Assembly (NCBI GenBank): GCA_000002445.1
Contig: CP000068.1
Coordinates: 480,001-544,000, forward strand
Reading direction: 5' to 3'
DNA length: 64,000 nucleotides
Source: Trypanosoma brucei
Taxonomy: Eukaryota
In this document: positions 3,851 through 43,444 of the stretch, piece after piece
Numbering within the stretch: position 1 is the stretch's first letter
Layout of the letters: every line of letters begins with the position of its first letter
The notes under the pieces: model-generated
Told to the model about the DNA's origin: nothing
Seen by the model: the letters and a program-made list of their open reading frames with translations, nothing else
The model's database searches: none
Position numbers and translations under genes: made by a program

Positions 3851-4139
3851 TATTACTGTTACTATATTTTTTTTTTCTACGGTGCCTGCTTATCCGCCTA
3901 ACCCGGCACCGCCACAGCGAAATTGGAAAAAAAATGTCTTCCTCTTTCGTGAAGCGTGTTAAAACCTGAAGTGGAAAGACGGAGAGAAGGCAAGGGGGAA
4001 ACAAGGGGGAGAAGAAAGGTGACGCCGTGGATTTACGTAGCCTCAAAGAACAGTCACAGTATGTTTCAACAACTACTGAGAACGGCACGCCGGTGCACGT
4101 GGGTATCAAAAGCATCGCAATTTTTATTTCTTCCTGTTA

Positions 4140-8595: not shown

Positions 8596-9102
8596 TTTTT
8601 TTTTCCCTCCCTACTCTTATCTAAAATTTCTAGTGCCCTTTTGTTTCCTTACACAATAGCAAGGTTGTGGATAATGGCCGTGCCTCTAACAAAGCTACAG
8701 AGCACACCGGGTGCACTTGCGTGCGTGCGTGAATTGAAAGAAAAATTGCGGAAACAGAGAATACTTGAAGGTAGAGGGGCCACAACAGGGGCTGAAATAA
8801 ACTAGCGGATCAGCGAGGGCGACAGCATCCAGAAATACGCAGCCCTCTTTAAGTAATAAGTGACTGGTAGGCAACTCTGTGTGTTAAACGAACCTTTAAA
8901 ACATCGGTAACATTACTTAAACGCGTAGTGGGTGGCTTTTTTACCTAAACGCGGGAACGTCCCTGCTTGTGGCGCGCCCTCCTCGTATTTCGCGGGCCGA
9001 CACCCATATGCACGCACGGACATCCCTGCTCCGGTTTCGGGAACGACTTCACTCCTTTCCCCAACTTTTTTCAGCCATCCCACACCCAACATTTGTGCTA
9101 CT

Positions 9103-14300: not shown

Positions 14301-14454
14301 CCACCACCCCCGTCCCTTCACGCGATAAATACCATATGCATACACACGCATATATATATATATCATGGTAGCAGCAATCGCGAAGCGGCTAAAATGTATC
14401 GGCTGCCGCGTCGCTATTCTTTTGCCAAGGGCGTTTGAATCACACGTTCCATTG

Positions 14455-14958
14455 CTAGAAAACATAAAGGCCGTAGGGGTTGTGTCGGTACCTCATTGGA
14501 TTTTCCGTTGAGCAGCTTGCCGAGAATTCGCTACGGCACTTTGGGTGTGGGGGTTCTTTATCCGAGTCTGACGACTCAGTGATGGAATTGTACACTTGCT
14601 TGCTTCCCCCCTCACTCCCCTCACCTCCTTGGGTGGCATCTTTCTCTGCAGTCAGCTGAGACGGGAGAGAAATAAAAGTGGGTTGTCGTCGCATCGTGGG
14701 TGTGAGGACGAGGGATGGGCTGTCAGATGGCATCCCGCGGGTTGGCGTCTTCACGGGTAACGCAACGCCATCCAAACGTCGGAGACCGGTTTCTCGGAGA
14801 AGCTTCATATTCTGTTCTTCGGTATGCAGTTGGTGTTCACCGTGCGCGAACGCACAACGGTCCCCGTACGGACATTGCCCATCTCGCTGATAGTGTTCAC
14901 ACAGTGTCGTTCTGTACTTGGACGGTTTCACCTCCACGTGCTTGTTCTTCTTTGCCAT
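14455..14958 (-). CDS. ZC3H12: TIS11-like CCCH zinc-finger RNA-binding protein (ZC3H12-like)
   Basis: 167-aa ORF with ATG start. It has a single C-x8-C-x5-C-x3-H finger, CEHYQRDGQCPYGDRCAFAH, preceded by the KYRTTLC lead-in. From memory, the T. brucei chromosome-5 pair ZC3H12/ZC3H13 has this small-then-large tandem arrangement. Confidence 0.8.
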   Translation of the reverse strand: MAKKNKHVEVKPSKYRTTLCEHYQRDGQCPYGDRCAFAHGEHQLHTEEQNMKLLRETGLRRLDGVALPVKTPTRGMPSDSPSLVLTPTMRRQPTFISLPSQLTAEKDATQGGEGSEGGSKQVYNSITESSDSDKEPPHPKCRSEFSASCSTENPMRYRHNPYGLYVF

Positions 14959-16640
14959 TCGAGTAGAAGTGTCCTTTTCTGTAGTTTATGATCTCTTTTT
15001 GCCTTCCGTCCTGGGTACAAACGTTCTTTTGAGTGTTTTATCTTGAAACCTATAAACGATGCTTGTCTGCGAAGTAAGGGAAACGAAGATGATGAGGGAG
15101 CTAAATACAATGGAAATAGCTACTGTCACACCGCTATTCTACCGAATGAGGTCAGCGTCGTTATGATCTGGTTGGTGGGCTACAGAAAAGGATGTTATAG
15201 ATATATATTTTAAAAGGGTTAGCAAAAACCCACCGGAGTTCAACGGCGCGCACCAGCACCCCCCCCCCACAGGGTTTACACCAGTCACAACTTCGCCGCA
15301 CCCGGTACGAGCAGGGTGGTGGGGAATCAGTTGTTGAAGCACCGGTAGGAAGAAGCCGCATCGCACCTTGCTGTTTACGGCAAAAAACAAACAAACATGC
15401 AATCGACACCAAGACAAGCGGTGGCGATCCGCCCTTATCGTACACGGGAAGGTTCAGGAGGCAAGTTACGCGAGTTCGTATTCCTAAGAAAGTGACGGAA
15501 CCACGTCGTGAACCCCAGTTTTGATAGAATAACGTGTTTTGGTAGACGTGCCGTCAATAATTCTCTAACCAGCTTGAAAGTACAAAGACCTTCCATAACG
15601 CGACAAAACCAACGTTCCCTCTTCAGGACATATTAGTGCAGCAACTCCAGAGGAGGGATGAGCAGAAAATGAACAATTCTGAACACCGTAAGTACGTTAT
15701 CTCATTAACAAAAAAAATGTGGAAACATCAACCAACAGCACAGCTCCTTAAACATCTTATCAGGTAGGTGGTCAGCGCATACAGAGTAAACAGCACCCCA
15801 TTGTGCAAAAAAAAAAAAGGCAAACCTGTATACTTTTGACCCCTGGACACACCCTTCAACATCATCCCAGTCATCCACCACAGTAACGTGGCTGGAGCAA
15901 CTTCCTGCCAAGCGGTTTAAATCCAAAGTGAAAGATTCTCTCAAACCAAACTAGAAAAAAAAAGGACGCAGAAAAAAGATTCGCCCACTTAATGTACCGA
16001 AGAATGGGCCCTCTTGTTGCCCTGTTTACTCGTCGTCTTTCCCGTTTGATGTATTATGTCGCTGCTCACCGAAGAAAGAGACACTGGTTGTGTGCCCTTC
16101 TCATCTCGGTAGAACGTGAGAACCAAAAGCACAGAAAGATAAACAACACAAATTGATGACCACGGTTGAGACACCTGCAAAAATATTCGAAGCTAAAAGG
16201 AGATACAACACAAAACGAGTTGCCCTAGCAACTCATGTCGGTCTTTCAGGTTTAAATTATCAAAGTATTTACGCATATTATGACATAAAACGCATCGTGC
16301 ACAGTAACAACATCGACTAGGCACATCTGCAGGCAATATATGGTAGTTCCCCTGGAATGAAGTTTTGAACAGGGAGGATACCACGACGATCGCAAACTTC
16401 GTATAAGGGGGAGATAACTGCTTCAGCGGAATAAACGATGTACATATCAGTATGTGCGAAGCGGTGCTGCCCTTCCCCACACTTAATCAGAGCAAACGAA
16501 GGGGAAAATCAGAAACAGACAGTACCTGCAGCGCCCGCTCATCTGTATTGGTCACCGAAGCAATTGCAGGCGCATTGGGAAGTGTCACCACTCGGCACCA
16601 AACACCCTCCAAACCTTTAATAACTCACCGCACTTTCTAC

Positions 16641-18341
16641 TCACAGAGGGTACACGGGCACACATTTATCGGATTCTGCACATGACGACTGAAAGTAGTT
16701 AGCGACAACAGGGCGGGGTCGTTGAGCTGGTGGTATCGCACGATGTTGTTCACTTGGACACACAACCTGCGACGTGGCTTCACCAACTTTTCTCGCACCA
16801 CTTCCACCAGCTGCGGAGAAATCTTCCCCTCTTTCAACTGCTCTTGACGTCCATTCTTTGCCCGAGGATACTTCCGCTTGATCCCTTTGGATCTCACTGC
16901 CACCAAGTGCAGCATGTGCAAATATGTTCACATCACAGCCACGAAGGATACTAGTGAAGTCAACATTTCTGTTGTGCTCTTCAACGCTACCTCCTGCTCC
17001 CACACCACCATCACTCTGTTCAGAAGCTACTGGCCGATGAGATCCTCTATCAGCTCGAATTTCGTATAGCTGAGTCAGTCCTGCAGCGGTACATTGCCTA
17101 TAGATACTACCATTTTTCTCATCTCTTGGGTCAGTACCCGCATTCTTGTCCGCGAGAGACTCGCTGATGAGCCGTGAATCAAGTAGGGACCTAAAGTCGG
17201 ATATCTCCTTGGACTTTGTCGAAGGAGGTTCCTTCACTTTGGGGTTTCCGAATTCACCGACGTCGTAGCTGGAGGCATCGTTGTCCTTTCGAAGAGTCGA
17301 ACTCCCTATCCCTTCGGTACATGACGCACTGGACCACGTGGTAGGTTGGTGGGGCAGCGAAGTCTTCATTGATGTTTCGTACACACCCCCCAGGTGCGTA
17401 GACGGGTCCAAAGAAGGCAATACTTCTCCCGCACTTTGTGGAGTCAATCTATTTCCACTACTCCCGCTATTTACGGGAATATTGCCAACAGTATCAAATG
17501 CACGAAAGGCTAAATCCGTGGCACAGTTGGCATTTTCAACCTCCGTTGTCCTTGTTGTGACGAAAGAATTCACCATGTGACCATTAGAAATCCACGCTAC
17601 ACCATCACCAAACGCTGCCTCACTTGGTATTCCCACGCTTGGGATAAAAGGGCCAACATATGGTGGAGGAGCTCCCGGAAAGGGGAAAAGGAAAGCACCC
17701 GGGGCGAGTTGCACGAGTTGTCCTGAGGTGTCAGCCAAGTTCACAACACTAAGATAAACATTATTGCCGCTGGTAGGGTAATGTACACTCGTAGGTTGAA
17801 TTGTACTTTTGGCTTCGACACCCCTCGCTTTGTTTGTAAATACGCTCATATTCGCACGATTTTGCCTTGACAACTTACCTTTCGTTATTTTTGGCGGTGG
17901 TTTAACTCCCTTTAATTCAGTATCTTCCGTAAATGGCACGGTAGCCTCGGAGTTGCTCAGATGATGGGGTGATCCGACACTGCTTCCCCCTTTTGGAGAG
18001 AGAAGCTCAGCTTCATGCCATGAACAGTATGTTACTCTTCCACTAGCACCAGCCGTTGTCTCGTTTGCAGTGCTTTCCATTCCGCTCTCAAAACTGGCAC
18101 ACGGCAAGACAGACCTTTGCTCAGCATTACTACCTCCCTGGGCGCTTTCCACATTAGTGTCGCCACGTTCTCTGCTGTCTCGACTCTTTGGTCCTTCTTC
18201 CTCATGCCGCAACTCATCCTCCCCGTGCGCGAATGCACATCGATCACCAAACTGACACTCACCATTTTCCATGAAGTAGGTGCAAAGAGAAGTTTTGTAT
18301 TTTGACGCCTTCACGATATCATGTTTCCGGTTTCTCGCCAT
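16641..18341 (-). CDS. ZC3H13: TIS11-like CCCH zinc-finger protein with long S/T/P-rich tail (ZC3H13-like)
   Basis: The track ORF 16641-18401 begins at a TTG codon, not ATG. The first in-frame ATG gives MARNRKHDIVKASKYKTSLCTYFMENGECQFGDRCAFAH, which parallels the ZC3H12 N-terminus MAKKNKHVEVKPSKYRTTLCEHY... It has one CCCH finger and then about 500 aa of low-complexity S/T/G/P-rich sequence. Start moved to 18341 on that basis. Confidence 0.75.
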   Translation of the reverse strand: MARNRKHDIVKASKYKTSLCTYFMENGECQFGDRCAFAHGEDELRHEEEGPKSRDSRERGDTNVESAQGGSNAEQRSVLPCASFESGMESTANETTAGASGRVTYCSWHEAELLSPKGGSSVGSPHHLSNSEATVPFTEDTELKGVKPPPKITKGKLSRQNRANMSVFTNKARGVEAKSTIQPTSVHYPTSGNNVYLSVVNLADTSGQLVQLAPGAFLFPFPGAPPPYVGPFIPSVGIPSEAAFGDGVAWISNGHMVNSFVTTRTTEVENANCATDLAFRAFDTVGNIPVNSGSSGNRLTPQSAGEVLPSLDPSTHLGGVYETSMKTSLPHQPTTWSSASCTEGIGSSTLRKDNDASSYDVGEFGNPKVKEPPSTKSKEISDFRSLLDSRLISESLADKNAGTDPRDEKNGSIYRQCTAAGLTQLYEIRADRGSHRPVASEQSDGGVGAGGSVEEHNRNVDFTSILRGCDVNIFAHAALGGSEIQRDQAEVSSGKEWTSRAVERGEDFSAAGGSGARKVGEATSQVVCPSEQHRAIPPAQRPRPVVANYFQSSCAESDKCVPVYPL

Positions 18342-21300
18342 ATTACCGGCTATATAAGGGTCCCAGTATATATATATTTGACACCTCTCTACAGGCAACA
18401 ACTGTGGTTATATCCCTCCTATATTCGGACCTTCCAGTCGGCGACCTGTAGGAATTGCTATGGGAACGAAAAGCACTCCTAACCTCCAGAATCTCTTATG
18501 TGCTCTTTCTCGAGGAAAAAAAGAAATTACGAAAAAAAGCTCCAACGGCAGTAAGAAGGTAAGGCAGGGAACACAGTTGTATTCGGTACCCCAAATCGGT
18601 ACTACAAGAAACAAAGCCGATAATGTCATATGAAACAAACAACAAAAAGGGGAAAACATTTCAATAAGGGACAGCCTTCGGCTGCAGAGTTTTCCTTTCC
18701 CGTACTCACGTCTCAGTTGGTGTTTCAGTAAAAAAGGGTTCTTCCACATGCATGCGGATTACTACAGAGAGAACACAACCAGAAATCAATCACCACCGTT
18801 CAACGATGCATCTCAAACAATAAACATCAATGACCTGCTTTTCCCCGAGTGAGGGAATAGAATGAAGAGCAATTACATTTCAAACGACAAAATATCAATA
18901 GCAATTTAGAAATACTATAAGAGAACACATCACCGTACTATTTGAGCCGAAAGACATCAGGTGTGTATGACATCCCGTTTTAAGCAAGGAACAGACACTT
19001 AAAAAGTACTCAAAATTGTAAAGCAGCGATGCCGCCGTTACGTAAAGCAATATCACACGGGAAATACAAGGCTTCGCGTACCGAGGTAGTGGTTCAACAA
19101 CTGTACAAATACCGGTAAGATATCAAACAAGTTGACTGAGTATGCTGGAGGAAGTTACCAACTACACAACAAATACTTTGTTCTCAACCGTATACAAGAG
19201 TTTTTAAAAAGGATATGATCTAAGGTATTTCATGCATCTGCTTGCCATTTGAACAAATAATTAAAATGCACCCCGCGTTCTACAACGAGCGGCTAAATAA
19301 TAACAACAATAATACAACGATGATGAATTAAAGTAAAAAAAAAATGATGATCTACACGCAAACGCGGTTGACACCCCGCAGCGTAAAAAGAACAAACGAA
19401 CACTCAAAACTGTGAGGGTAGAAACAATGGAAGCAGTACGTCAATGAGTAAAACAAGCCCTTGCTTTGGGGGGAGGTAAATAATACGAAGCATCGAAATT
19501 CACGCTACTTTAAAGTAAATTCCTCTCGCGAACTTCAACCGTTAGTTTGAATTACACACACCACTGGATTAATTCCCTCTCTTCAGAGCCGTGTCAAATA
19601 CTTCCCATCCGAAACATCGGCAAACATGCAGGGATGACAGCGAATGCTTGTCACACCTCAATATATACAATCCATAAAACACAAGACAATACCAGGTTCT
19701 GTACACATCAGTCAGTTACGAAAGCCGTAACACGGTAATTGGTTAAATACAAACGTAAGCATGCGGATGTTAGTGCATGTATCCCGCCACAGCAAGGGGA
19801 TCCGGAAAAAGAAACACCAAAATGAAGCCAGCAACGTCTAAAAGTAGCGCAATCGATCAGACAGATGCGAAGACACACGATGCAGACATTTTTTTTAAAT
19901 GCAGCAGCAGTTCTCCACCGACAAATATTACAACGAAAACAGAATATTCCACGACACTAATCCCACTAAACGGAAAAAATGGGTCAGAACATCCACCAGC
20001 CGCACACTTATGTTAGAAAGCAACGCCACTCCATCCCGCACAAACATCCAATGCCCTCTCTGAAGGTTACAACTGCCCTGCATCTGCGTTGAAACAGACT
20101 AACAAAAAATAAAATAAAATAACCGCCTCTGCCTTCAAAGGGGGTGGGGGCTGCACTCGCCTGCGGCAGCTCTCTTAAAAAACGGCCGCGCTTACTGTTG
20201 TGCCTCCGCTGACGTTGACATTTGGCCAGAAGAGGTGAAGGGCTACTGCTCACAGAAGGAGACGCCGCACGAAAAGCTGCGAGGATAGCACACGGCCATG
20301 TACATGCCGGAGAGGGGCCGCGGCTTCAACTGGCATTGGTGCAAGTGCGCTCAACAATGGTGCGTAAAGTACTCACCGCGGTCCCATTAGCAGCCACCGG
20401 GGCGGTACATTTCAAGCCACAGGCTGCAGGTGGTGAGGTGCACCAATCCGCTTGCCGCGTCGCCACTTCCGCCGGTTATCAATACCAAGTGGTAATTAGG
20501 GCGGGGCCCCCGCAAGAAAAAAAAAACGAAACAGCCACCAAGGAGCAAACGGTTGAAAGGGGCAAAAAAAAAAAAATAACGGCAAAGAAGCGCGAGGCGC
20601 CCGCCGACCTAACGACATTGGCAGGGTTGCTTTAAACGGCACCGCCAAAGCGAGAAACAACACCCCCACTTGAAAGGGCCGCGCGGACGTCGACCGGGCT
20701 TCATTAGCGGTGGGAATCTCTGAAAACATCAGGCACGCAAATACCCGGGCGCGGCCTGCACACCATACCGGTTGTTCCTTGTTTCTGGAGGCTGTCGCGT
20801 GTCATCAAGACGGTACCTACTGTAGTGTGCCTTGTGGAACGTCCATCGATGACAGATACGGGCGAGAGTGGAGACGGTCCCTCATTTCTTGAGGAAAAGG
20901 CAACCCCCCCCCCCCAAAAAAAAAAATAATAATAATGAAAAATGCAGGTAATAGTATTCGCCGGCGCACCTCCCCTTTAATTTCGTTTGGAACGTTTCCT
21001 GCAAGATTAAGGAGGGGATTATGCGTCGCACACGGAAGGGCATGATAGAACTAACCCGAAGAAAAGTAACGACAACCTTCCTATTCGTGCTTTCTCACCG
21101 TTGGATAAAGGGTAATGGTCAAACGGGCAGAAGAACCGACTTCACGCTACAACAATGCTCGGTGGGGTGGGTGGTAGTCAACGCAGCCGCGTTGAAATTT
21201 GAAAAGAGAAGAGCGGTGAAATACAAACTTGAGAACAACCAAAACGATAAAACATGTAGATGTGAGCTTTTGCGGAAAACTCGCCTTGCCGGAAGAGATT

Positions 21301-24300
21301 GCTTCCTTCGTCGAGTCACAGACATCTGCGCAGTGCGGCGTACCGGACAATGGCGCCGCGGCTTGGCAGGTGGCCGCACAACTGGGTGCATCAGCTGAAA
21401 GTAAACGAAGCGTCGGAAATACACCGGAAAGGAGCCAGAGTGGCGACGGTATTAAGGGTAGAATTGCTGTCACCACGTCTACAGTAAAAACTTTGGATAG
21501 AGGCGATCGTTGTGGAAGCACCCGCCGAAACACGTTTCAAATAAATCTGCAACCGTGCTCCCAAGGGAAAAGGCAAAGAAAAAAAAAGGGAAGCAGCGAC
21601 GGAGGGGAGACGTTGAGAGGTTGCTCTTTTCTCAGGTACGCTAGCGGATGGAGTGTTTTTAAAAAATATTCGCCCGTTGTCCCAGTGGCAGAAAGAGGAG
21701 GGGAGGCATTTGGGGAAGTGGTCGTAGAATAGTTAACATGCACATAAAGAAAGGAATTGCCTAACAGAGTTTTCGTATTTTGGACAACAGAGGTTGCTGG
21801 GGGATCATGAGCGTGGGAGCCTTAAGCCTCCAGCGGTTCCCGGTCGTGAGCCCCTTCAAAAAGCAGCTGAGTAGCTGTTGAGTCTACAACGATAGATTTG
21901 AGAGAGAGATAGAGGAGGGTAATTAGCGGACCCAACTTATTCTGTGCCTGTGGCCCCGCAATTATAAGAGGGTTTCATTTCTTGACAGTTGAGGCTCTTG
22001 CTGCGGTAGACTGGTCTTGAGTTTTTTTTTCCAAGCACAGCCCAAACTGACAGGAGCGGCGACTGACTCAAACACCTTTATCAATTTTGCTACGATCGCA
22101 TCACTATTTCCGTCCCATGTCATTGTAGTATAAACTGGTAGTCGCTTCTTGCTCCATTCAAACGGTGGGGAATCTCTGAGGCAGCGGTCTCCTCCGCTTC
22201 TCAAGGCAGTTCACATGCATAACTTATCTTGCAGAGGTGCTGTTGTGGCTGGTGATGAGCAATTTGACATTCATTAATTGGTAAGTAGTTTAGAGGAGCT
22301 CAAAGGCGTTATTTGATACGGCAGTTGGTTGTTTTGTTTGGAAACAAATTGGGGTCATATTGGTTCTAACTGTCCGTAATAGGGCGGCTCGGACAATCCG
22401 AGGGAGTTTTTCCCCTTTCAATTACTATTCATCACGGGATTTTCAATAATTTTATTGTTCATACTTTTTTTCGTTTATTGTAATTTATCATGAAAATGCG
22501 TGTGCCAATAATTTTTTAAATTATAATTTCTATTTGTCATTTCGTTTTTTTCTCTAAATTTCTTTTTACAATGTTTTTTATTTTCATCGAGATGAAACTG
22601 GATTTTCGGTGTATGAGGTTTTAAATTGAATATTAGTGGGTTATTGTAGCTATTTGTTGAAGGAACATCTTGTTTATTTTACTCTGTTGTTTTATATTGA
22701 GGTCTCCCCTATGTTTTCACTGATGGTTGGGGTTTTGTGTGGATTATTCTCATTTCGTTTTTTCTTTTTGGCGCCACGACCGATCGCTGATGTGTCTGGT
22801 TATTCGATGTGCGTTAAAAAAATTTAAATGGTCGTGCGGACATTCTTTGGCAGTTGTGTGTCAATGGAGACGTGCACGTGAATCGCCACTTTGTTTCAAG
22901 TAGACATGTTTTAATTTTTTAAACCTAAACCTAGCTCTCTTGAAGCGTTGCACAGTCTGGTCGGTGAAGTTGCAGTTGGTGCAATTTTTTGCTCTGTGGG
23001 ATCAATGCTTGCTCTGCTTGTACATCCCGATATGTAGGCCCTGATATGGGTTCTAAATAATGTTGTTTGGGTAATTAATAGTGTTTGATGACGTGTTTGC
23101 TGGTGTTTTCATATCGAACCTACTTGTTGTTTGCAATGCCGTGTGACATATCTTCCCTTTCGTGGAGCATTTTTTTTTAAATAGAAAAAAGTTTCTTGTG
23201 GCGCTTTTTATCTTTTATATTTTAGGGAGATTAAAATTTGATTTTCAACCGTTAAAAAGTTCTTGTTATTTATTTTCTTTCCCACTTTACCTTGAGATTA
23301 ATGTTGTTGATGCTAGGTAGTTTATGTTCCGACGTAGTGATTAATTGTTTAGTTTGTATTGTATGCTTGTCCATAGTTCGTTTATTCTTACGGATGCCTT
23401 AGTGGTGCAGATACATGGGAGTCGTGCTGTGAATAGACAAAAAGAATAACTATATACTTTGAAGATTAACAGATTGCACCTCTCCGGGGGAGGGTATACC
23501 ATTTTTGTTGTTGATTTCACGTATTTTGCGGATTGACCAGTTTACCACTTCAGGCCCAGTAACAGTTGTTCTAAGATCATTGATGTACTTTTTATTTGGG
23601 TATCCTGTATATTTTTATCAAAAGGTTATTTTCTATTACACGCAAAGTTTCTCGTACCTGTAGAAATGCTCTTGGGTTAACTGCACTCTTTACTTACATT
23701 GTGCTAATGAGTGATATGGACGTATGTGTCCAGTTGAATATTATTTTTCTCGCGTATTATGTGTTTAATGTTTTTCAATTGCTCCCCTTTCCTCATCTCC
23801 GTCATTTGTCCTCTTATCTTTGCTAGACAATAATGGTAAATGCATCCGATAGTAAACAGCACTTGCCTAAAAAAAATTATACTTCATACGGTGCTATTAT
23901 TATTTGTAGGCAAGTGCTGTTTATCACTGTTATTATTATCATTAATGTTATCTTTTGTGAATCTTGTGGCTGGCTTTATCTTTTTTACTTTGTTGTTACT
24001 TTCCCCTATTCTGCTGTTACTGAAACATGTTTCGTCGACTATGTGATACACAATTTTGTTATAACGTATGTGTTTGAGTTAATAGATGTAGATAAAAGAT
24101 GCCACTCCATAATGCATTTTTATTGGTTCATTTCTCTTCCGGAGGAAGATGCTTCCATTTTTTTATTTTTTAGAAATTTAAATGGGTTTATTTAATTATG
24201 ATTGTGTACGGCACATTTTAAACCAGATTTCGCTCTGTTTTGTTAATGTACTTATGCCAAAATGCGGGGTATTTTGTTTTATAAAGTGTTAAATTTATTT

Positions 24301-25211
24301 TCTGATCTTTGTGGTGCGTAACGAAAATTTAACACCAACGATCACCCTCGGACAAACCACTTTAGATATTAAATAACCGGAACTACTATGATCCTAACAA
24401 TATATAAGAATATACAAACATCTGTAAAGTTTTAAAATTTGTATATACTTATAATTTAAGCGCCTGAGCAATGGCCAACTGCATCGTTTAATATCACTTT
24501 CATTTTTCATTTTTTTTTAAAAAACGATGTCTGTGTTGTTATTGATCGGAGAAAAATTAGGAGGTTGCGTGTTATTCTATTTACCCTCCTAACAGTCACT
24601 TTCTTTTTTTTTCACGACGATTTCATCTCACTTTGAACCCAACGAGTTGTGTGATTTTATTGCCAGAATATGCGCTGTTACCTCTTTGAAAATTCATAGT
24701 TCATGCTTTTTGAATTCAACGCTTGAGTTTTATCGAAAAGAAGCGAATGAAGTCTTTTCCCTTTTCATCGTTGTGTTGCGGCACCGATGCTTTTTTTTTT
24801 CTGGCTCCACTTACGAACAGTTGGAAAAAATATTTTTCCTAGTGCGAGTGCAGAGCAACTGGTCAGCTTTAAAAAGTTTTTTTTAGAATGCTAAACTTTA
24901 AAAAATAATATCGTGTTGTCATCCAGATACATTTTAGAAAATGGTTAGCAACTGGGATTGCAAGTCATATATTCTGGCACACGTTGATGTTTGGTTTGAT
25001 ACATATTTTATTGTGTTATATTTTTGCTATTATTTTATTGGGGAATTTATCTTCGATATGCGCTCATAAGCACCGACTTCTTTTTATATTTGTACTACTA
25101 CTGCAACCTGACCACCGTTCATATGTGTATATATATTAACTACAGTTTCTTGCTCGAAGGGTCCGGCACCTTAAGGTACATTAGCGTAGTAAGGTTGTTG
25201 GATTTACCGCG
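18342..25211. promoter_or_regulatory. divergent strand-switch region, candidate bidirectional RNA pol II transcription start region
   Basis: All confident genes to the left are on the minus strand and all to the right are on the plus strand. The roughly 7 kb interval has no long conserved-looking ORF. It contains a GC-rich block (about 20150-21750), an AT/T-rich block (about 22400-24650) and a C13A11 homopolymer (20904-20927). In trypanosomatids, pol II initiates in such divergent regions without a classical promoter. Confidence 0.55.
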
Positions 25212-25976
25212 ATGGTGATAAAGAAGGATGTTCCTTTCAAGTACACGCTACATCAAGGACTATGTGAGCGGGATCCAGTTTTGAGCACCCCTTTGATAAT
25301 TACGGCGGGAGTAGATGGCAATGAATTGCAGTACCGTCTTGACATGCAAGTTCCATCGCATTCAGCTATTGAAGGCATGGAGGTTACTAACGTGGAGTTC
25401 CTCTTTACAAGTAGCAAATGTAACGCGGGTAAATCAAATCAACATCTTTCTAAGTGTAGCATGTTAGTGTACTTGTACATGCAACTGCTTGATGGTGTAG
25501 GCAGACCCACGAGTCCACCGTTTCCTATATCATGTTGCAACACCCATACTGGGAAAGGCATTTTTTCGTGCGTAAAGCTGCCCCTTCAGGTTAATCAACA
25601 GTGCAGATTCTATTTGGTTCGAAGAAGTTGTACAGATAGTGCTTCCCAGAGTGCTATGGAACTTAAGGGTGTGCGCTTTACCAGTAAGTTGTACCTTTTG
25701 TATCGTTCACCGCTGAATTCTGCAAAAGTTCGGAGTCAGATGGACGTACTCACAGGTGGCGATCTAAAATTTACGGCAGATACCGAAGTAATGACTTCTA
25801 CCGGTGCGAAACGCAGTCGTGAGGAATTAGAGCGATTCGGATCTGAAAATTCTGATCGCAAGGGGAAAAAAGCAAAGAGGGAAAGGGAAACGGCGACCAC
25901 GATGGATAGGGCTTCCGATGATGAACCCCCAAACCTTATTTATGCCTTCGTGTCAGGAGGAGACAATGAGAGTTAA
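25212..25976 (+). CDS. hypothetical protein, first ORF of the plus-strand array
   Basis: 254-aa ATG-initiated ORF, the only long ORF inside the strand-switch interval. Codon composition resembles neighbouring genes. The C-terminus is basic and acidic (KRSREELERFGSENSDRKGKKAKRERE). I recognise no domain. Counting it makes the gene total match the locus numbering I recall for this chromosome-5 segment, which is weak support. Confidence 0.4.
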   Translation: MVIKKDVPFKYTLHQGLCERDPVLSTPLIITAGVDGNELQYRLDMQVPSHSAIEGMEVTNVEFLFTSSKCNAGKSNQHLSKCSMLVYLYMQLLDGVGRPTSPPFPISCCNTHTGKGIFSCVKLPLQVNQQCRFYLVRRSCTDSASQSAMELKGVRFTSKLYLLYRSPLNSAKVRSQMDVLTGGDLKFTADTEVMTSTGAKRSREELERFGSENSDRKGKKAKRERETATTMDRASDDEPPNLIYAFVSGGDNES

Positions 25977-27905
25977 TAATTGTGCGCATATTAAGTTCGC
26001 CATCCCCCCCCCCCCGAGGCATGCTGTCAATATTTTTGACCGTCGCATTATCACATTGCGGCATTTTTTTGCCTGTAGTTCCGTTTTTTCTTGGTGATTT
26101 TTGTCGGTTTTACCTTTTCGATTTATACATATCTACATTGCCACGATTAAGATCCGCTTTCTTCATGTTAATGAAAACAAGCATCATTACTTTTCTCCTC
26201 TGTGACATGTAAATTCGCAAAAAAAAAAACTCTTTCCCCACATTTTCTTAGTTTTAATGTAGTACATACGGTGGTTCATAATTTAGATGGCTGCTATTTT
26301 CTAATGCTTAGATTCACAAAATACTTTAAATAAGTAAAGTGAAATTGGCTATGCATTTTTGGACAAGTGTTTAAGGCCTTGTGTGAATAACATTACTTAA
26401 CTTTCTGGATTGCTGTATAAATGGTTGAGATGACACTACTTTTTTGTTTTTTTTAATTTTAAAGATGAGCAAGAGGGTGTTTGTGGTTTTCTATGTACCT
26501 CATTAATTTCATACAGCGATAAATTTCTATCATTCTGGAAGTGGGTTTCATTTGCGAGGGAATCAATTGAGATGTTGGTTTTTCAACGTTGCGAGAGAAT
26601 CTCTTGGACTGCTGCAATGACACAGGAAGTTACAACATTGATGTCACTACATTTTTATTGGCAAAGGCGATCGTAAGAGTGCGCGGTATATATTCCCCAA
26701 CGTGAAGGGGGAAATGCGTAAAATATGCATGTGTGTGAGCTTGGCCCTTTACAAAATATAAAATATAACAGCAGAGTAGTAGCATTCTACGGTTTCTGTT
26801 AGACTTTCCATCTTCTTACTGCAATGATGTGAGTTCCTTTGTTACGTGTTTCTTTTGTTTTTGCAGTGTGACTCAATTGGAGATATCCGGGCGTCTGTAC
26901 CGGGGTACGCGCAACTAATGAAGGAAATACTTTAGTATCAACTATTTTTCTTTACCTTTTGCGGAACATTTTTAAAAATTATTATTATTTTGACCGTTGT
27001 TATGTGATATTAAAAAGTTGATAGTGTTCATTTGTTTTGGTTTTATTACACCGAAGACTCGCTATCGGTGTTTTTAGTGTATTTTCTCAGTTATCGTTTT
27101 GCTTTCCTTAGCAGCACGTGGTCAAGGGTTCGATTTTTTTCCCCCTTTGCCATTTGCAGGTGTTTTTGCTGCGACACGGTAAATGGGGATGCCAGCAACT
27201 GAGTTGTCCTGGTAGCTTGGGCAGATATGTCATTTTTCAATTCTACCCAACATCTACAGTTGTTTGATTCATTTCTCTCTTATTTTTATTTTTTACTTTG
27301 GTTTTTTTAAACATTTGGAAGATGACATCCTGAAGGATCGGGGTGATATACCTTCTAAAACGATAAATGGCACGGGGCTGCAATTTAACAGCAAGTTACT
27401 ACCTCAGGAATTACTGGTGATGAACTAAGGTAGTGAAGACCATGCGCGCAGTCCTGTTCGCTGCCGTACCGTCCGTGTGCGGTTTGTAAACAGCTGCAAA
27501 CTTACTTTCTTTTATCGATCGATTTGTTTTTTTAAAGATAAACTTTTTGCAAGGGATTTTGATGTACTCAATTATTTTTGTAAATATACGTGGTTTCGTC
27601 ATTCGAAAAATCTTTGAACACGCGGCAATTCTTTAGGTAACTGTGGGATCGCGTCTTCTTTTTATGCGACGGCATTTAAACGTAGGAGCTGCTGTTCTGT
27701 GAGGTTGCTGTGACTTACTCTGCACCATGGTTGTTCACTGCTCCCTTAATGCTTCTATTTTTTGAAATGTTTAAATCTATATCCCATCGTGTTTAACGCA
27801 CTTGTAGGAAAACCCGCGGAGAACAACATTTATTTTTGTCATCATTAATGCTATTATTACCCTTTTTTTTTGCAATCTCTTAATAGGGTTTACGTGGTCA
27901 TTTGA

Positions 27906-29762
27906 ATGAGTGAACCATTGATGGCTAGGTGTGCATCTCTGCTGGACATCTTGGTTCCCCGTAGTGTTGAATGCTTAAGCAATGCGAAGGTACAGAACGA
28001 ATCGTGCTGCGCTATACAGTACGACCGAATTTTGCGTGTCCCGGTTCTGATTATGAAAGGAGACATCTCGAATGCCCGTGTTCAGATACCGCGTGATGGC
28101 AAATCACTTCCTGTAGTTCCGCTGCCGTGCACTCTCGTAGCTCTCCAGGCGTACATTGGATCTTTTGACACCTTTGCGTTGGAGGTGTCAGTGAGCACTA
28201 AGACTTCTCTTCGCGTGAAGCTGATTATTGGGACTCACTTTAACAAGACGTCGTTGGAGGACACCGGTAGCAGTCTGATTCTCTTTAGGATGCCCTTGAT
28301 CATACCGCGAAACAGATGGGTTCAAATAGTATTTCACATTTCAGGAATCGTAACGCATCTTCTTGAACTGCCGCCAATTAAATTCATCGACGCAATATCA
28401 TTGAGTGGCACATGTAAGGCTTCGCGCTTGATGGCATCCAATAGTGAGGAGGTTGTAGTGAACGCAACACCCAGTGACATGACTCTCTTTGCTGTTCCGG
28501 CGTATGCGCCCCCGATTTGGCAGACCGTTGCGGCCTCTCCACCCCCGAACGGGACCTGCAGTGACAATAATAAAAAAATTAGTGGTCGCTCTCCACAGAA
28601 AGTTGCTAAAGACCGCTTACCCGTTGTAGTGAAGTCGCCATTAAGAAGGGACGATGATACTGCCAATGAGGGTGAAAACGACTCACCAAAGCATAATGTG
28701 GTGCGAACAGCTGCTACAAGTGCTTCTAACGGCACACCATCGCCCCCGTACAAACAAATAGGGCGCGAGGTTTCGGCTATTGAGAGTACATCAAGCGCCA
28801 ACTCCTTTGATGTGCCGCCGGAAGGTCGGGCGCCAAGTTTGCCAGGTGACTTTACAGATGCCCGCCGAGTCAAGCAGATGCCTAAGCAACAGGTCGGTCA
28901 GCCCGCTGCGAGGTGCGGATCTGCCGCTTACATACGGCTGGTAAGCGGAGCGAACTTTCCGCCACGTAGCAGCAGTAACCCGACTGTGAAACCGCGTCCG
29001 CTTCACTTAGGGGCAAAGGAACAGAGTCCTAGTGCGGTTACAACTCCCCCGCCACCCCCTGTCGAAACATACCCGGGTGTATGCGATCTTTTGTTTGATG
29101 CCTCGTATGGCATCACAGGTTGGGGGGAAACCGCCTGTCGTGCAAGTACTGCTGCTTCAGCCTCTCCTCCTCGTGCCGGAAGCGATGTAAAGTGCAGGTC
29201 GGCGCCAACTGCGGCAGTACCAACCAACCGAATATCTGGTGGTGCAGTGAGTGAGTGTAAAACGAACGGATTAGCGGAGCAGGTTTCCCCGAAAGCGAAA
29301 CGGTTGAAAAGGGTTATAGAAATAAGGCGGCGGTCATTCGTCCCCCCCACTAGGCGCCGGAAGCCGTGCGGTGGTGATGGTCAAAACGGTGAAGGCAACG
29401 AAACAGGGGCGGCCGCGGGCGGTACGTCCAGGAGGTCTGCTGTTAGTGTGAGGCGGCTTTACATGCGAAAGAGGATCAGGAAACTAAAGGAAGCACAGAA
29501 CAGCGCACGTCGCATGCAAGAAATGAAAAGACTTCCAGCGTCTGAACTACCCATAGACCCTCAGGACGAGGCACTTATGATGGTTGGTGAAGAGACAATG
29601 AATGTCACGCGTGAGCCACGTTGTGGTTACGGTTTTGGTTATCTTGGTGTCCTTCATGAGAGTGGCGGATTTGAGGCGGATGAGAATGCTGACACGGAGT
29701 TGAAGGGCGCTCTCACGCTGGAGCTTTCCGAATTATCCGATGGTGAGGAAAATGAAGAATAG
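27906..29762 (+). CDS. CFAP20/DUF667-domain-containing protein with long disordered S/P/A-rich C-terminal extension
   Basis: 618-aa ORF with ATG start. The N-terminal roughly 190 aa follow the CFAP20 (BUG22) pattern: FALEVSV...LRVKL...FRMPLIIPRNRWVQIVFHISG...GTCKASRLMAS corresponds to the CFAP20 blocks FEVQV...MPMRLDDGWNQIQFNL...ANCRIRRV. The remainder is low-complexity with a KR-rich patch (RRLYMRKRIRKLKE). Confidence 0.5.
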   Translation: MSEPLMARCASLLDILVPRSVECLSNAKVQNESCCAIQYDRILRVPVLIMKGDISNARVQIPRDGKSLPVVPLPCTLVALQAYIGSFDTFALEVSVSTKTSLRVKLIIGTHFNKTSLEDTGSSLILFRMPLIIPRNRWVQIVFHISGIVTHLLELPPIKFIDAISLSGTCKASRLMASNSEEVVVNATPSDMTLFAVPAYAPPIWQTVAASPPPNGTCSDNNKKISGRSPQKVAKDRLPVVVKSPLRRDDDTANEGENDSPKHNVVRTAATSASNGTPSPPYKQIGREVSAIESTSSANSFDVPPEGRAPSLPGDFTDARRVKQMPKQQVGQPAARCGSAAYIRLVSGANFPPRSSSNPTVKPRPLHLGAKEQSPSAVTTPPPPPVETYPGVCDLLFDASYGITGWGETACRASTAASASPPRAGSDVKCRSAPTAAVPTNRISGGAVSECKTNGLAEQVSPKAKRLKRVIEIRRRSFVPPTRRRKPCGGDGQNGEGNETGAAAGGTSRRSAVSVRRLYMRKRIRKLKEAQNSARRMQEMKRLPASELPIDPQDEALMMVGEETMNVTREPRCGYGFGYLGVLHESGGFEADENADTELKGALTLELSELSDGEENEE

Positions 29763-30925
29763 GTTGTTTAGGCCTTGTGACGTCTGTGACAATATATCTT
29801 TCCGATTCTTGTGGACTTTTTTGTGGCATTTCAGTGGTGTATGTAAGAGTTTTTGCGTTACAAAAGTGCGTGTGTACAAATCGTGCGTTGAAAGGCAGGA
29901 GACACTCCTTCGCCGCGCTTGCGGCGGCAGGGGTGATTTTTTTTTTCTTGGAAGGGAGTCGTATCCGTGTGCGTGTGCTTCTTCGTAAGTTGTTGCGCAC
30001 AAAACCTTGCCTGCTGAAATGCGCGTCTCATATACATATACATATATATATATATATATATCTTCCCATCATTATCACTCCCCATCTGGTCTTTTTTTCT
30101 TTTGTGTTCAGCTGGGTGATGCCCTTTTCGTTTCCTCGTTCCAACCTTTTGTATGTCTGGTTATATTTCACTCCCCTTTACGTTTAGTGTGCCCCCTAAC
30201 TCTTCCACTCGCTTATCATGGAAGCGTTCTTGCCAGAAAGATGATTTGTCTTCAACCGGAGTTCGTTTTTTTTTCCTAAGGCAAGAGTGAACTCATGCAC
30301 ACAGGCTCGGGTCAATATTAACGACACGCCAAGCGGCTGGGTGAGCAGTGAGAGCATTTACCCTATTTTCTCCCTTCTTCGTTTGTTTTCTATCTTCTTC
30401 ACTGTATTCCCCCCTTTTTGTTCGACAGTTGTTGATGTTAATTGACTGCTTGTACCTTTTTTTTGTCATTTTTCTTTTTTCTTCTTTTCTCATTTCCATT
30501 CCACTTTCTTTTTGTTTTCGTCCTTTTTTTTTCTTTTTAGCCCTGTACGTGCTTGCAGCAGATAAGGCTGCCGTCATTACGATTCCAGTGTGTTACGTCT
30601 ATGGTGAAGGGGAAATTTCGTGTGGATGTGAGGTAAATAAAACAAAACCAAGTTGAGCGAGAGCAGACGGGCATACAGTCGAAGGAACGGGATAAAACTA
30701 AATTAAAAAAAAGATCCGAACTGCTGGAAACCCTGAATAACACCATGGATATGCACCCATCCTTTCCACTTGGTCAATCGCGATTCCCACCATCTTCTTT
30801 TGTGTTTTGTGGAGTAAAAATGTGTGAGGGGAGGGTATGGGAAGGGAGTTTACATGCTGTAGTTTCGCATATTGTTACATGTCGTCGTCTTTTTTGACCT
30901 TTCTTCTTAAAGAAAGGCCAATATC

Positions 30926-31058
30926 GCCTCCTCTTTTTTTTTTTTACAATCCTACACTGCCCTTCATCTCGTCAATTTTTCTTTGTTTTCAATTCTTTTA
31001 TCTGTCAAACACTACACCATTTCCTCGCCGTGTCGCTTTCTTGTTTTGTTGAACACAG
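30926..31058 (+). promoter_or_regulatory. polypyrimidine tract plus AG, candidate spliced-leader acceptor for the L13a gene
   Basis: A roughly 130-nt C/T-rich run (ctcctcttttttttttttt...cctcgccgtgtcgctttcttgttttgtt) ends about 20 nt upstream of the ATG at 31078. The first downstream AG is at 31057-31058. This is the canonical trypanosomatid trans-splicing signal architecture. Confidence 0.45.
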
Positions 31059-31077
31059 AAGAGAGTAAGCTCCCGGA

Positions 31078-31746
31078 ATGGTTTTACCAAGCCGCAGGTC
31101 GCTGAATCGCAGCTCCCGCAAGGGCTTCAAGAAGCACCGTCCTGACATTATTGTTATTGACCTGAAGGACCATGTATTGGGTCGTGCGGCCGCCATCGTC
31201 GCCAAGCAGCTGCTGCTCGGAAAGAAGATAACTGTGGTCCGTTGTGAGAAATTAACAATTGCAGGATCGGAGATTCGCAACAAGATCAAGTACCTGCAGT
31301 TCCTTCGCAAGCGGAAGCTGTCAAACCCGAAACTTGGACCATTCCATCATCGCAGTCCCTCTGATGTGTTTATCCGCACAGTTCGCTCCATGCTGCCGCG
31401 TTACACAAAGCGAGGCCAGCGCGCGCTCCGCCAGCTCGTTGCTTACGAGGGCGTACCCGTCAACGTCGTGCGTACCGGCGGTCGTGTGGTGATTCCCAAG
31501 GCGCAGCGTCACAACTGCTACCGTAACGAGCGCCGCTTCACGGTGTTGGGTAACATGTGCAAACACGTTGGATGGAAGTACAGCGACGTTGTGGAGAAAC
31601 TTGAGGCAGCCCGTATTGAAAAGTCCGGGCGTCACCACAAGAAGATGGAAAAGGTTCGCGTCGCTTGGAAGAATGCCCGCAAGGAGGCCCTCAAGAAGAT
31701 GCCCCAGAAGAATGTGGAGGTTCTCAAGAAGTTTGGTCTTGCGTAA
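31078..31746 (+). CDS. RPL13A: 60S ribosomal protein L13a (uL13)
   Basis: 222-aa ORF with ATG start. It is strongly basic. Conserved L13a blocks include VIDLKDHVLGRAAAIVAKQLLLGKKITVVRCE and KYLQFLRKRKLSNP. Confidence 0.9.
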   Translation: MVLPSRRSLNRSSRKGFKKHRPDIIVIDLKDHVLGRAAAIVAKQLLLGKKITVVRCEKLTIAGSEIRNKIKYLQFLRKRKLSNPKLGPFHHRSPSDVFIRTVRSMLPRYTKRGQRALRQLVAYEGVPVNVVRTGGRVVIPKAQRHNCYRNERRFTVLGNMCKHVGWKYSDVVEKLEAARIEKSGRHHKKMEKVRVAWKNARKEALKKMPQKNVEVLKKFGLA

Positions 31747-39821: not shown

Positions 39822-40228
39822 AATTAGCTGGCAATTACTCCAAGCGCCTATCCCATGTCAGATGTTGATATGAGAAGAAAACAAAGGTGATGAAGTAAGA
39901 AATGGATGCGATCGGTAAGGGAAGTGAGAGAAAGCGAAAGAGAAAGAGAAAAAAGAAAAGAAGGAGAGGGTGAAAGCGTCACTTCGTTTATGATTGCCCA
40001 GGGCTGAGAGTAACAACAGCAGCAACAAAGTAATAAACACCGATGCTAACGAACGGGTGAAGGGAGTTGTTTGGGAATCTGATGAGTAAAGAGAGGATGA
40101 GGAACGCCGGCGGTGAAATAAAAAAAATGTCTGGCAGCTGCAGGGTGACTTGAAGTGAAAAAAAGAAAAAAAGAAAAGCAAAATAGTACCCATCCAATAT
40201 GCGTTCCCTGGGAGTCTGAGTGAGGGGT

Positions 40229-40302
40229 GAGGAGAGGAGAGGAGAGGAGAGGAGAGGAGAGGAGAGGAGAGGAGAGGAGAGGAGAGGAGAGGAGAGGAGA
40301 GA
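40229..40302. repeat. (GGAGA)~15 pentanucleotide microsatellite
   Basis: gaggagaggagaggagagg... read directly. The complement is a perfect polypyrimidine (TCTCC)n. Confidence 0.9.

Positions 40303-42403: not shown

Positions 42404-42404
<1 letters not shown>

Positions 42405-42443
<39 letters not shown>
42405..42443. repeat. compound microsatellite (TA)~10(TG)~11
   Basis: Read directly. It is one of more than 10 simple repeats in the 39.9-44.2 kb spacer. Confidence 0.85.
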
Positions 42444-43385: not shown

Positions 43386-43393
43386 TCATCATC

Positions 43394-43444
<51 letters not shown>
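43386..43444. repeat. (TTA)~19 trinucleotide microsatellite
   Basis: attattattatt... run read directly. Confidence 0.9.

What the first reader, a model, noticed from the sequence alone, without database searches (positions are those of the whole stretch)
18342..27905. Divergent strand-switch region with three compositional domains and long homopolymers
Coding polarity flips here (minus-strand genes to the left, plus-strand genes to the right), so both gene arrays should start in this interval. The interval is not uniform. A GC-rich block of about 1.6 kb (about 20150-21750) carries overlapping ORF-like frames on both strands. A C13A11 homopolymer sits at 20904-20927, which is a G13 run on the coding strand of the leftward array, the orientation reported for G-tracts at trypanosome transcription start regions. 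An AT/T-rich block of about 2.2 kb follows (about 22400-24650, no tandem periodicity seen). A second C12 run sits at 26004-26015. The GC island could hide a structured ncRNA gene or mark a nucleosome-depleted initiation site.
Basis: partly seen in the sequence, partly recalled or inferred. Interest (0 to 1): 0.6.

Follow-up and report, generated by a model that had tools for sequence, protein, structure and literature searches.

The report
Ordinary trypanosome divergent strand-switch region
This is the gene-free gap where two head-to-head gene arrays of a Trypanosoma brucei-group chromosome begin, a well-known kind of transcription start region; its GC-rich centre is real and recurs at the same spot in three other trypanosome species, but it hides no detectable gene or structured RNA.

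Summary
The window is T. brucei-group DNA, 99.7% identical to a T. equiperdum contig. Genes left of the interval run on the minus strand and end with ZC3H13 (16641-18341). Genes on the right run on the plus strand. The first plus-strand gene is a conserved 254-aa gene at 25212-25976, not the gene at 27906, so the true strand-switch region is 18342-25211 (6.9 kb).

- The three compositional domains are real.
- No tandem repeats are present.
- The first homopolymer is C12A11 (not C13A11) at 20904-20926.
- The second C12 is at 26004-26015, but it lies in the 254-aa gene's 3' flank with C on the coding strand.
- G/C runs of 8 or more occur about once per 6.4 kb across the window, and their lengths differ between close strains, so they are not specific markers.

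The GC core (20000-21900) has no Rfam or tRNA hit and no unusual RNA folding. It has no protein homologue in any frame and diverges between strains as fast as other non-coding DNA. A GC island does sit at the strand-polarity switch of the orthologous region in T. cruzi, T. rangeli and T. theileri, without any sequence similarity.

Verdict: an ordinary divergent RNA polymerase II transcription start region. Interest is low.

The parts
16641..18341 (-). ZC3H13 (CCCH zinc-finger protein 13) coding sequence, the first gene of the leftward array
   Evidence: Pfam zf-CCCH. 99% identical to 'zinc finger CCCH domain containing protein 13' of T. brucei equiperdum. The annotated start in T. equiperdum gives 566 aa.
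18342..19999 (-). Left arm of the switch region. A-rich on the plus strand, so T/GT-rich on the leftward coding strand. Presumed 5' UTR, splice-acceptor zone and downstream part of the leftward transcription start region.
   Evidence: GC 0.41 and GT fraction 0.592 on the minus strand. AT skew is +0.2 to +0.39. A-runs but almost no T-runs.
20000..21900 (.). GC-rich non-coding core, the hinge of the switch region
   Evidence: GC 0.518. The peak 300-nt window (0.59 at 20151) is the most GC-rich non-coding window of the whole window. No Pfam hit, no homologue and no coding-like codon usage. No RNA family and no fold signal. 16.8 substitutions per kb against strain L006. Analogous islands occur at the orthologous site in three other species.
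20904..20926 (-). C12A11 homopolymer pair, which reads T11G12 on the leftward coding strand
   Evidence: Exact coordinates. Length-polymorphic: C10 in L001 and C9 in L006. The orientation matches the coding-strand G/T stretches of Wedel 2017.
21600..21935 (.). Compositional polarity switch point between the two arrays
   Evidence: The cumulative keto skew has its minimum for the whole 64-kb window at 21600. The cumulative T-A skew has its minimum at 21935. The last long A-run is at 21579-21587 and the first long T-run at 22022-22030.
21901..25211 (+). Right arm. AT-rich, and T/GT-rich on the plus strand. Presumed rightward transcription start region plus the 5' UTR and splice-acceptor zone of the 254-aa gene.
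   Evidence: GC 0.359, T 0.395, GT 0.588, rising to 0.65 at 22250-23000. No tandem repeats. No relic of the Kelch gene that occupies this position in other species.
23853..23923 (.). Isolated hairpin-forming inverted repeat inside the right arm
   Evidence: Arms of 29 nt, 90% complementary, with a 13-nt loop. MFE -30.6 kcal/mol and z = -5.1. The 15-mer core is unique in the window.
25212..25976 (+). Conserved hypothetical 254-aa gene, the true first gene of the rightward array
   Evidence: 100% identical to T. equiperdum TEOVI_000062000 and 41-43% to T. cruzi, T. grayi and T. rangeli over full length. Syntenic in all species examined. Coding-like codon score of 0.155.
26004..26015 (+). Second C12 run, in the 3' flank of the 254-aa gene and outside the switch region
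   Evidence: Coordinates. It lies 28 nt after the stop codon at 25974-25976, with C on the coding strand. C11 in L001 and C7 in L006.
27906..29762 (+).
   Evidence: tblastn gives 41-44% identity to the syntenic T. cruzi 642-aa and T. theileri 611-aa proteins.

Best explanation
The interval is a divergent strand-switch region of a Trypanosoma brucei-group chromosome. It lies between ZC3H13 (minus strand) and a conserved 254-aa gene (plus strand).

By analogy with all mapped T. brucei divergent switch regions, it should hold two back-to-back, dispersed RNA polymerase II transcription start regions. One fires leftward from about 21.6 kb toward 18.3 kb. The other fires rightward from about 21.9 kb toward 25.2 kb.

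Each arm is T- and G-rich on its own coding strand. This is the strand bias that Wedel et al. showed can drive directional initiation and H2A.Z deposition. The T11G12 tract at 20904-20926 is one such coding-strand element of the leftward unit.

The GC-rich core is the non-coding hinge where strand polarity flips. It is kept as a composition, not as a sequence.

What is shown: gene orientation, synteny, the skew switch, the absence of genes or RNAs in the core, and recurrence of the GC island in three other species.

What is inferred: that initiation happens here, where exactly it happens, and that the GC island has any role (for example setting nucleosome occupancy or separating the two start regions).
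For: - Organism and genes.
- Head-to-head orientation, conserved in T. cruzi, T. rangeli and T. theileri.
- The global minimum of cumulative keto skew for the 64-kb window is at 21600. A-runs stop at 21587 and T-runs start at 22022.
- Arms are GT-rich on their coding strands, 0.59 each and up to 0.65.
- Wedel 2017 reports that coding-strand 10-mers made of long G or T stretches are enriched at the 5' ends of start regions and drive directional transcription.
- The GC island is the most GC-rich non-coding 300-nt window in each of four species' loci. In each species the A-to-T switch falls inside the island or at its edge.
- Nothing coding or structured is found in the core.
- The core diverges between strains at a neutral-like rate.
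Against: - No transcription or chromatin data could be consulted, so initiation itself is not shown.
- The arms' GT fraction (0.59) is within one standard deviation of ordinary intergenic DNA in the window (0.559 +/- 0.042). The skew therefore marks transcription direction but not specifically a promoter.
- The G-run is no more frequent here than elsewhere.
- The four GC islands share no motif beyond chance.
- The islands have been examined at one orthologous locus only, so a general or functional role for them is unproven.
Confidence: 0.8

Rival explanations
1. The 1.9-kb GC core of T. brucei is mostly the decayed relic of a former coding sequence, either a lost gene or a retroelement inserted into the switch region. 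It would sit on top of a small ancestral GC island, and that would explain its coding-like composition.
For: - The core's GC (0.518) equals the coding-sequence mean (0.513) and exceeds every other intergenic region.
- There is an excess of stop-free stretches of at least 70 codons (16 against 10.0 +/- 2.3, P = 0.008).
- The core is 4-5 times longer than the islands of T. cruzi, T. rangeli and T. theileri.
- T. vivax carries reverse-transcriptase ORFs in the corresponding region.
- Two genes present in other species have vanished from this locus in T. brucei.
Against: - No frame of the core matches any of 5.8 billion proteins at E <= 10.
- The 138-aa frame that scored best of the core's frames on codon usage matches none of 1.84 billion representatives.
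- There is no Pfam hit and no Kelch or metallophosphatase profile match.
- The core shows no similarity to the T. vivax retroelement ORFs.
- Codon-usage scores are like those of spurious frames.
- The longest open frame is not exceptional.
- Shuffling evens out local GC, which alone can inflate the observed excess of open frames.
Confidence: 0.15
2. The centre of the switch region (about 21.6-22.0 kb) also serves as a DNA replication origin. Its A/G-rich upstream side and T-rich downstream side resemble the topology reported for T. brucei origins. This is not exclusive of the transcription-start reading.
For: - Stanojcic et al. 2026 (PMC13179062) define origins by poly(dA) and G enrichment upstream and poly(dT) downstream of the centre. 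They find an A8-upstream plus T8-downstream pattern within +/-0.5 kb in 37% of origins against 9% of controls.
- Here A9 (21579-21587) and T9 (22022-22030) lie 443 bp apart.
- The plus strand is purine-rich (0.58-0.60) from about 20250 to 22000.
Against: - The same paper reports that origins mapped by SNS-seq are not enriched at transcription start regions. Only 3.7% of origins lie within such regions.
- C is not enriched downstream here, since GC skew stays positive.
- An A-to-T switch is expected at any divergent switch region simply from coding-strand T-richness.
Confidence: 0.12
3. The GC island encodes an unannotated functional RNA (a structured small RNA or a lncRNA) or a small protein.
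For: - The island is compositionally distinct and positionally conserved in four species.
- Open frames exist on both strands.
- A lncRNA without conserved structure cannot be excluded from sequence alone.
Against: - Rfam gives 0 hits at gathering score, and only sub-threshold hits of 15-27 bits (E = 0.003-9.4), all far below gathering score, at E <= 10.
- There are no tRNAs in 64 kb. From established knowledge, T. brucei Pol III small-RNA genes depend on a companion tRNA gene.
- No window of the core folds better than shuffles by 2 SD on either strand.
- Strain divergence in the core is 16.8/kb, against 3.5-6/kb in conserved coding sequences.
- There is no sequence or k-mer conservation between species.
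- There are no protein homologues.
Confidence: 0.06
4. The region is a centromere, since trypanosome centromeres lie at strand-switch regions.
For: From established knowledge (Obado et al. 2007, not read here), T. cruzi centromeres are GC-rich strand-switch domains and T. brucei centromeres lie between transcription units.
Against: - There is no tandem repeat array of any period in 18000-28000.
- No retroelement remnants are detectable.
- The GC islands are 0.35-1.9 kb, not the 11-16 kb I recall (from memory, not checked) for T. cruzi centromeric strand-switch domains.
Confidence: 0.01

Closest known systems
Divergent strand-switch regions / RNA Pol II transcription start regions of Trypanosoma brucei (Siegel et al. 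2009, from memory; Wedel et al. 2017, PMC5579346)
   Same: Head-to-head gene arrays, several kb of gene-free DNA, no recognisable promoter motif, and G/T skew on each coding strand. A long G and T stretch lies on the coding strand near the 5' end of the leftward unit.
   Different: Nothing that conflicts. The chromatin marks and primary-transcript ends that define these regions experimentally could not be examined. The papers read here do not describe a GC-rich hinge.
G-tracts at Leishmania major strand-switch regions (Thomas et al. 2009, PMC2679053)
   Same: A G-run of at least 10 nt on the coding strand inside a divergent switch region.
   Different: There is only one such run here. Runs of similar length occur at the same density across the rest of the window, and the run varies between 9 and 12 nt among close strains. 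The paper itself concludes such tracts are not sufficient for initiation.
[quoted passage not shown] 2026, PMC13179062)
   Same: Poly(dA) and purine enrichment upstream, and poly(dT) downstream, of a central point.
   Different: Those origins are mostly within transcription units and are not enriched at start regions. The C enrichment they report downstream is not seen here.

Membership tests
Trypanosomatid divergent strand-switch region (Pol II transcription start regions) | Two gene arrays pointing away from each other across a gene-free gap | tested here: met
   All homology-supported genes at 259-18341 are on the minus strand and all from 25212 onward are on the plus strand. No coding signal lies between them.
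Trypanosomatid divergent strand-switch region (Pol II transcription start regions) | The switch is conserved in synteny in related species | tested here: met
   The same DEAD-helicase / zf-CCCH | switch | 254-aa-orthologue / 618-aa-orthologue / RPL13 order is found in T. cruzi, T. rangeli and T. theileri.
Trypanosomatid divergent strand-switch region (Pol II transcription start regions) | G-over-C and T-over-A skew on each coding strand, strongest at the 5' end of each start region (Wedel 2017) | tested here: inconclusive
   The skew flips at 21600-21935, and this is the global minimum for the window. However, the arms' GT fraction (0.59) is within 1 SD of ordinary intergenic DNA (0.559 +/- 0.042).
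Trypanosomatid divergent strand-switch region (Pol II transcription start regions) | Enrichment of H2A.Z, H2B.V, H4K10ac, H3K4me3 and BDF3 | not testable with these tools
   No ChIP-seq data are accessible.
Trypanosomatid divergent strand-switch region (Pol II transcription start regions) | 5'-triphosphate or nascent RNA ends on both strands | not testable with these tools
   No RNA data are accessible.
G-tract initiation element | A long G-run on the coding strand of the array it serves | tested here: inconclusive
   Met for 20904-20915 (G12 on the minus strand). Not met for 26004-26015, which has C on the coding strand and lies in a 3' flank.
G-tract initiation element | Local enrichment over the genomic background | tested here: not met
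   There are 10 runs of at least 8 nt in 64 kb, about 1 per 6.4 kb, and one in the 6.9-kb switch region.
Structured non-coding RNA gene (any Rfam family, tRNA, snoRNA) | Covariance-model or tRNA-model match | tested here: not met
   0 matches at gathering score in 64 kb. In 18300-28000 at E <= 10 there are only hits of 15-27 bits, far below gathering score. There are 0 tRNAs.
Structured non-coding RNA gene (any Rfam family, tRNA, snoRNA) | Folding energy below that of shuffled sequence | tested here: not met
   160-nt windows across 20000-21900 give z between -2.0 and +2.8 on both strands.
Structured non-coding RNA gene (any Rfam family, tRNA, snoRNA) | Compensatory base changes in orthologues | not testable with these tools
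   The islands of other species are not alignable. Close strains differ too little to test this.
T. brucei centromere | AT-rich tandem repeat array of several kb flanked by retroelements | tested here: not met
   TRF finds only 16-23-nt micro-repeats. There is no retroelement homology.
T. brucei SNS-seq replication origin | At least 8 A upstream and at least 8 T downstream within +/-0.5 kb of a centre, with G upstream and C downstream | tested here: inconclusive
   A9 at 21579 and T9 at 22022 meet the A/T criterion, and purine richness upstream is met. C enrichment downstream is not met.

The most novel reading that the evidence does not exclude
A short GC-rich island, defined by composition rather than sequence, may be a conserved and functional core element of trypanosome divergent strand-switch regions. 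It would sit exactly at the strand-polarity flip and act, for example, as a nucleosome-organising or insulating hinge between the two promoters. The evidence is that in T. brucei, T. cruzi, T. rangeli and T. theileri the most GC-rich non-coding stretch of the whole locus lies at this one orthologous point, despite no alignable sequence.
Probability: 0.2. Interest if true: 0.5.

Novelty: already known. Interest (0 to 1): 0.22.

Why it matters
Divergent strand-switch regions are where trypanosomes start nearly all protein-coding transcription, and how initiation is specified there is still debated. This locus adds nothing new to that debate by itself. It behaves like the textbook case, and its long homopolymers are ordinary, unstable tracts.

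The one observation worth carrying forward is the GC island at the polarity flip. It recurs in four trypanosome lineages at the same orthologous position with no sequence conservation. If the same holds across all divergent switch regions, it would be a simple, testable sequence-composition feature of these otherwise motif-less promoters.

Tried and rejected
- Hidden protein gene or pseudogene in the GC core. I tried Pfam on five ORFs of the core (plus one in the AT-rich right arm), a codon-usage score, and an exact look-up of 8 ATG ORFs in 15 billion proteins. I also ran a concatenated query of all 17 stop-free frames against 5.8 billion proteins at E <= 10 and a full HMMER search of the 138-aa frame against 1.84 billion representatives. 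tblastn and profile HMMs built from 3-4 orthologues against six-frame pieces gave only noise.\n- Retroelement origin. The T. vivax RVT and endonuclease-like ORFs have no match in the window.\n- Structured RNA. Rfam at gathering and at E <= 10, ARAGORN, and a sliding fold z-score were all negative.\n- Sequence or motif conservation between the switch regions or GC islands of four species. blastn with word size 7, tblastx and a shared k-mer test found only low-complexity T-runs.\n- G-quadruplex motifs. None are present in the switch region.\n- Centromere or tandem repeats. None are present.\n- The bacterial promoter/terminator scan is not applicable to a eukaryote and was ignored.\n- I could not obtain the Cordon-Obras 2022 promoter paper or Siegel 2009. 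The 75-bp promoter motifs could therefore not be scanned for, and Siegel's G-run statement is cited from memory only.\n- No T. congolense locus could be fetched, because it was absent from the protein hits.
Full report
**What the window is.** The 254-aa ORF at 25212-25976 is 100% identical to a Trypanosoma equiperdum protein. It is 41-43% identical over its full length to proteins of T. cruzi, T. c. marinkellei, T. grayi and T. rangeli. A 16.3-kb T. equiperdum contig aligns to window 15211-31477 at 99.7% identity. The only differences are homopolymer lengths and runs of N. The minus-strand gene ending the left array (16641-18341) is the CCCH zinc-finger protein ZC3H13. The window is therefore core chromosomal DNA of the T. 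brucei group.

**Checking the observation.**
- The polarity flip is real. Every homology-supported gene up to 18341 is on the minus strand, and every one from 25212 on is on the plus strand.
The conserved 254-aa gene lies inside the interval, so the switch region is 18342-25211 (6.87 kb).
- The three compositional domains exist. The left arm (18342-19999) has GC 0.41 and is A-rich on the plus strand. The core (20000-21900) has GC 0.518. The right arm (21901-25211) has GC 0.36 and is T-rich.
- The core's GC equals the mean of the window's coding sequences (0.513 +/- 0.026) and exceeds all 18 other intergenic regions (maximum 0.489). Its best 300-nt window (0.59) is higher than all 425 non-coding windows outside the switch region.
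- Tandem Repeats Finder finds nothing but 16-23-nt micro-repeats.
- The homopolymers are C12 (20904-20915) plus A11 (20916-20926), one C fewer than reported, and C12 at 26004-26015.

**The homopolymers.**
- On the leftward coding strand the first tract reads T11G12. This fits the finding of Wedel et al. 2017 that 10-mers enriched on the coding strand at the 5' ends of T. brucei start regions are mostly long G or T stretches.
- G/C runs of at least 8 nt occur ten times in the window, about once per 6.4 kb. One run in a 6.9-kb region is therefore the background rate.
- The second C12 lies 28 nt after the stop codon of the 254-aa gene, with C on the coding strand, outside the switch region.
- Both tracts change length between close strains. 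The first is C12, C10 and C9, and the second is C12, C11 and C7, in the window, L001 and L006 respectively.
- In Leishmania such tracts are reported as 'peppered throughout the genome' and not sufficient for initiation.
- They are best seen as ordinary, slippage-prone tracts. One of them happens to have the orientation of the known GT-rich elements.

**Where the polarity flips.**
- The cumulative (G+T)-(A+C) skew has its minimum for the entire 64-kb window at 21600.
- The cumulative T-A skew of the switch region has its minimum at 21935.
- Long A-runs stop at 21587 and long T-runs begin at 22022.
- Both arms are GT-rich on their own coding strand (0.59, up to 0.65 at 22250-23000). Ordinary intergenic regions of the window average 0.559 +/- 0.042, so this bias marks direction of transcription rather than a promoter as such.

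**Is something hidden in the GC core?** Nothing detectable.
- RNA: there are no Rfam matches at gathering score in 64 kb and only far-sub-threshold hits (15-27 bits) at E <= 10. There are no tRNAs. Fold z-scores of 160-nt windows across the core lie between -2.0 and +2.8 on both strands.
- Protein, local tests: there is no Pfam hit. Codon-usage scores lie in the range of spurious frames. None of the ATG ORFs exists in a 15-billion-protein collection.
- Protein, database searches: none of 17 stop-free frames matches 5.8 billion proteins at E <= 10. The 138-aa frame that scored highest of the core's frames on codon usage has no hit in 1.84 billion representatives.
- Open frames: they are somewhat more numerous than in shuffles (16 against 10.0 +/- 2.3), but the longest is unexceptional. 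Local GC heterogeneity can explain the excess.
- Strain divergence: against a second strain (L006, 98.2% identical), the core has 16.8 substitutions per kb. Other non-coding DNA has 8-25 per kb, and the DEAD-helicase, ZC3H12 and ZC3H13 coding sequences have 3.5-6 per kb. The core is not under detectable sequence-level constraint.

**Comparison with other species.**
- The gene order DEAD helicase (-), zf-CCCH (-), switch, then the 254-aa orthologue, the 618-aa orthologue and RPL13 (+) is conserved in T. cruzi, T. rangeli and T. theileri.
- Those species have a Kelch-repeat gene between the switch and the 254-aa orthologue, and a metallophosphatase gene after it. Both are absent from the window. 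Neither tblastn nor profile HMMs find a relic in the AT-rich blocks that now occupy those positions.
- The switch regions share no alignable sequence but do share an architecture: an A-rich arm, a GC island, then a T-rich arm.
- In each of the four species the most GC-rich non-coding 300-nt window of the whole available locus lies in this switch region:

| Species | Island peak GC | Highest GC elsewhere in non-coding DNA |
|---|---|---|
| T. brucei | 0.59 | 0.557 |
| T. cruzi | 0.657 | 0.453 |
| T. rangeli | 0.587 | 0.537 |
| T. theileri | 0.61 | 0.413 |

- In each species the A-to-T switch falls inside the island or at its edge.
- The islands share no k-mers beyond chance.
- The T. brucei core is 4-5 times longer than the others.
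- None of the papers I could read describes such an island.
- This rests on one orthologous locus. It may be a functional composition feature or a by-product, for example of an untranscribed gap free of the U-rich processing signals that make other intergenic DNA AT-rich.

**Most likely mechanism.** This is an ordinary divergent strand-switch region carrying two back-to-back dispersed Pol II start regions. Leftward initiation would occur between about 21.6 kb and the ZC3H13 splice-acceptor zone. That zone probably includes the poly-pyrimidine tract on the minus strand at about 18513-18540, an inference from the sequence. Rightward initiation would occur between about 21.9 kb and the T-tracts at 24604-24800 upstream of the 254-aa gene. 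Direction would be set by coding-strand G/T richness, as shown experimentally elsewhere by Wedel et al. The GC core is the hinge between the two. Initiation itself is inferred, not shown.

**Rivals.**
- The expanded core may be a decayed coding or retroelement relic. This is possible but has no homology support.
- The centre may double as a replication origin. A9 upstream and T9 downstream, 443 bp apart, match the published topology, but SNS-seq origins are not enriched at start regions.
- A hidden RNA or protein gene is poorly supported.
- A centromere is excluded by the lack of repeat arrays.

**Verdict.** The interpretation as a divergent initiation region is sound and already textbook. The suggestions of a G-tract marker and a hidden structured RNA are not supported. 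Interest is low, and the recurring GC island is a modest lead for a genome-wide check.

Noticed in passing
window 21901-25211 and 25977-27905; L003 7683-9512 and 11165-12367; L007 6298-8094 and 3219-4421; L008 7649-9448 and 11213-12415: In T. cruzi, T. rangeli and T. theileri a Kelch-repeat gene and a metallophosphatase gene flank the orthologue of the 254-aa gene. The metallophosphatase gene is also present in T. grayi. Both genes are missing at this locus in the T. brucei-group window, and the AT-rich DNA now in their places shows no detectable relic.
   Followed up: partly
window 23853-23923: An isolated inverted repeat with 29-nt arms (90% complementary) and a 13-nt loop. As RNA it folds at -30.6 kcal/mol (z = -5.1). 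It is unique in the window and unchanged in the second strain. Its function is unknown.
   Followed up: partly
L003 6950-7340; L008 7000-7440; L007 8590-9050 (the island runs into an assembly gap of N): In each of three other trypanosome species, a short GC-rich island (GC 0.59-0.66) is the most GC-rich non-coding stretch of the locus. It sits at the A-to-T polarity flip of the orthologous divergent strand-switch region. It has no sequence or k-mer similarity to the T. brucei core.
   Followed up: partly
window 20904-20915 and 26004-26015, against L001 and L006: Both C-runs are length-polymorphic among very close strains. The first is C12, C10 and C9, and the second is C12, C11 and C7. Some of this could be assembly error at homopolymers.
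   Followed up: yes
L004 2989-5307 (T. vivax): The T. vivax region upstream of ZC3H13 carries non-LTR retroelement ORFs (RVT_1 and an endonuclease-like ORF). Synteny with the 254-aa gene is broken within 10 kb.
   Followed up: partly
L008 6371-6564, minus strand (T. rangeli): An unannotated, apparently frameshifted ZC3H13-like CCCH zinc-finger N-terminus. It shortens the real T. rangeli switch region to about 1.1 kb. T. cruzi shows no second zinc-finger gene at the corresponding place.
   Followed up: partly
window 5393-5421, 7548-7578, 13819-13847 (minus-strand G4); 30828-30846, 45930-45957, 54920-54964, 58716-58745, 58842-58872, 61817-61859 (plus-strand G4): All nine canonical G-quadruplex motifs of the window lie on the coding strand of their gene array. 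None lies in the switch region.
   Followed up: no
window 39822-44267: A 4.4-kb gene-free, very AT-rich stretch (GC 0.35, down to 0.31) inside the rightward array. It has many long A-runs and T-runs on the same strand (for example A15 at 40835 and T12 at 41705). It was not examined.
   Followed up: no
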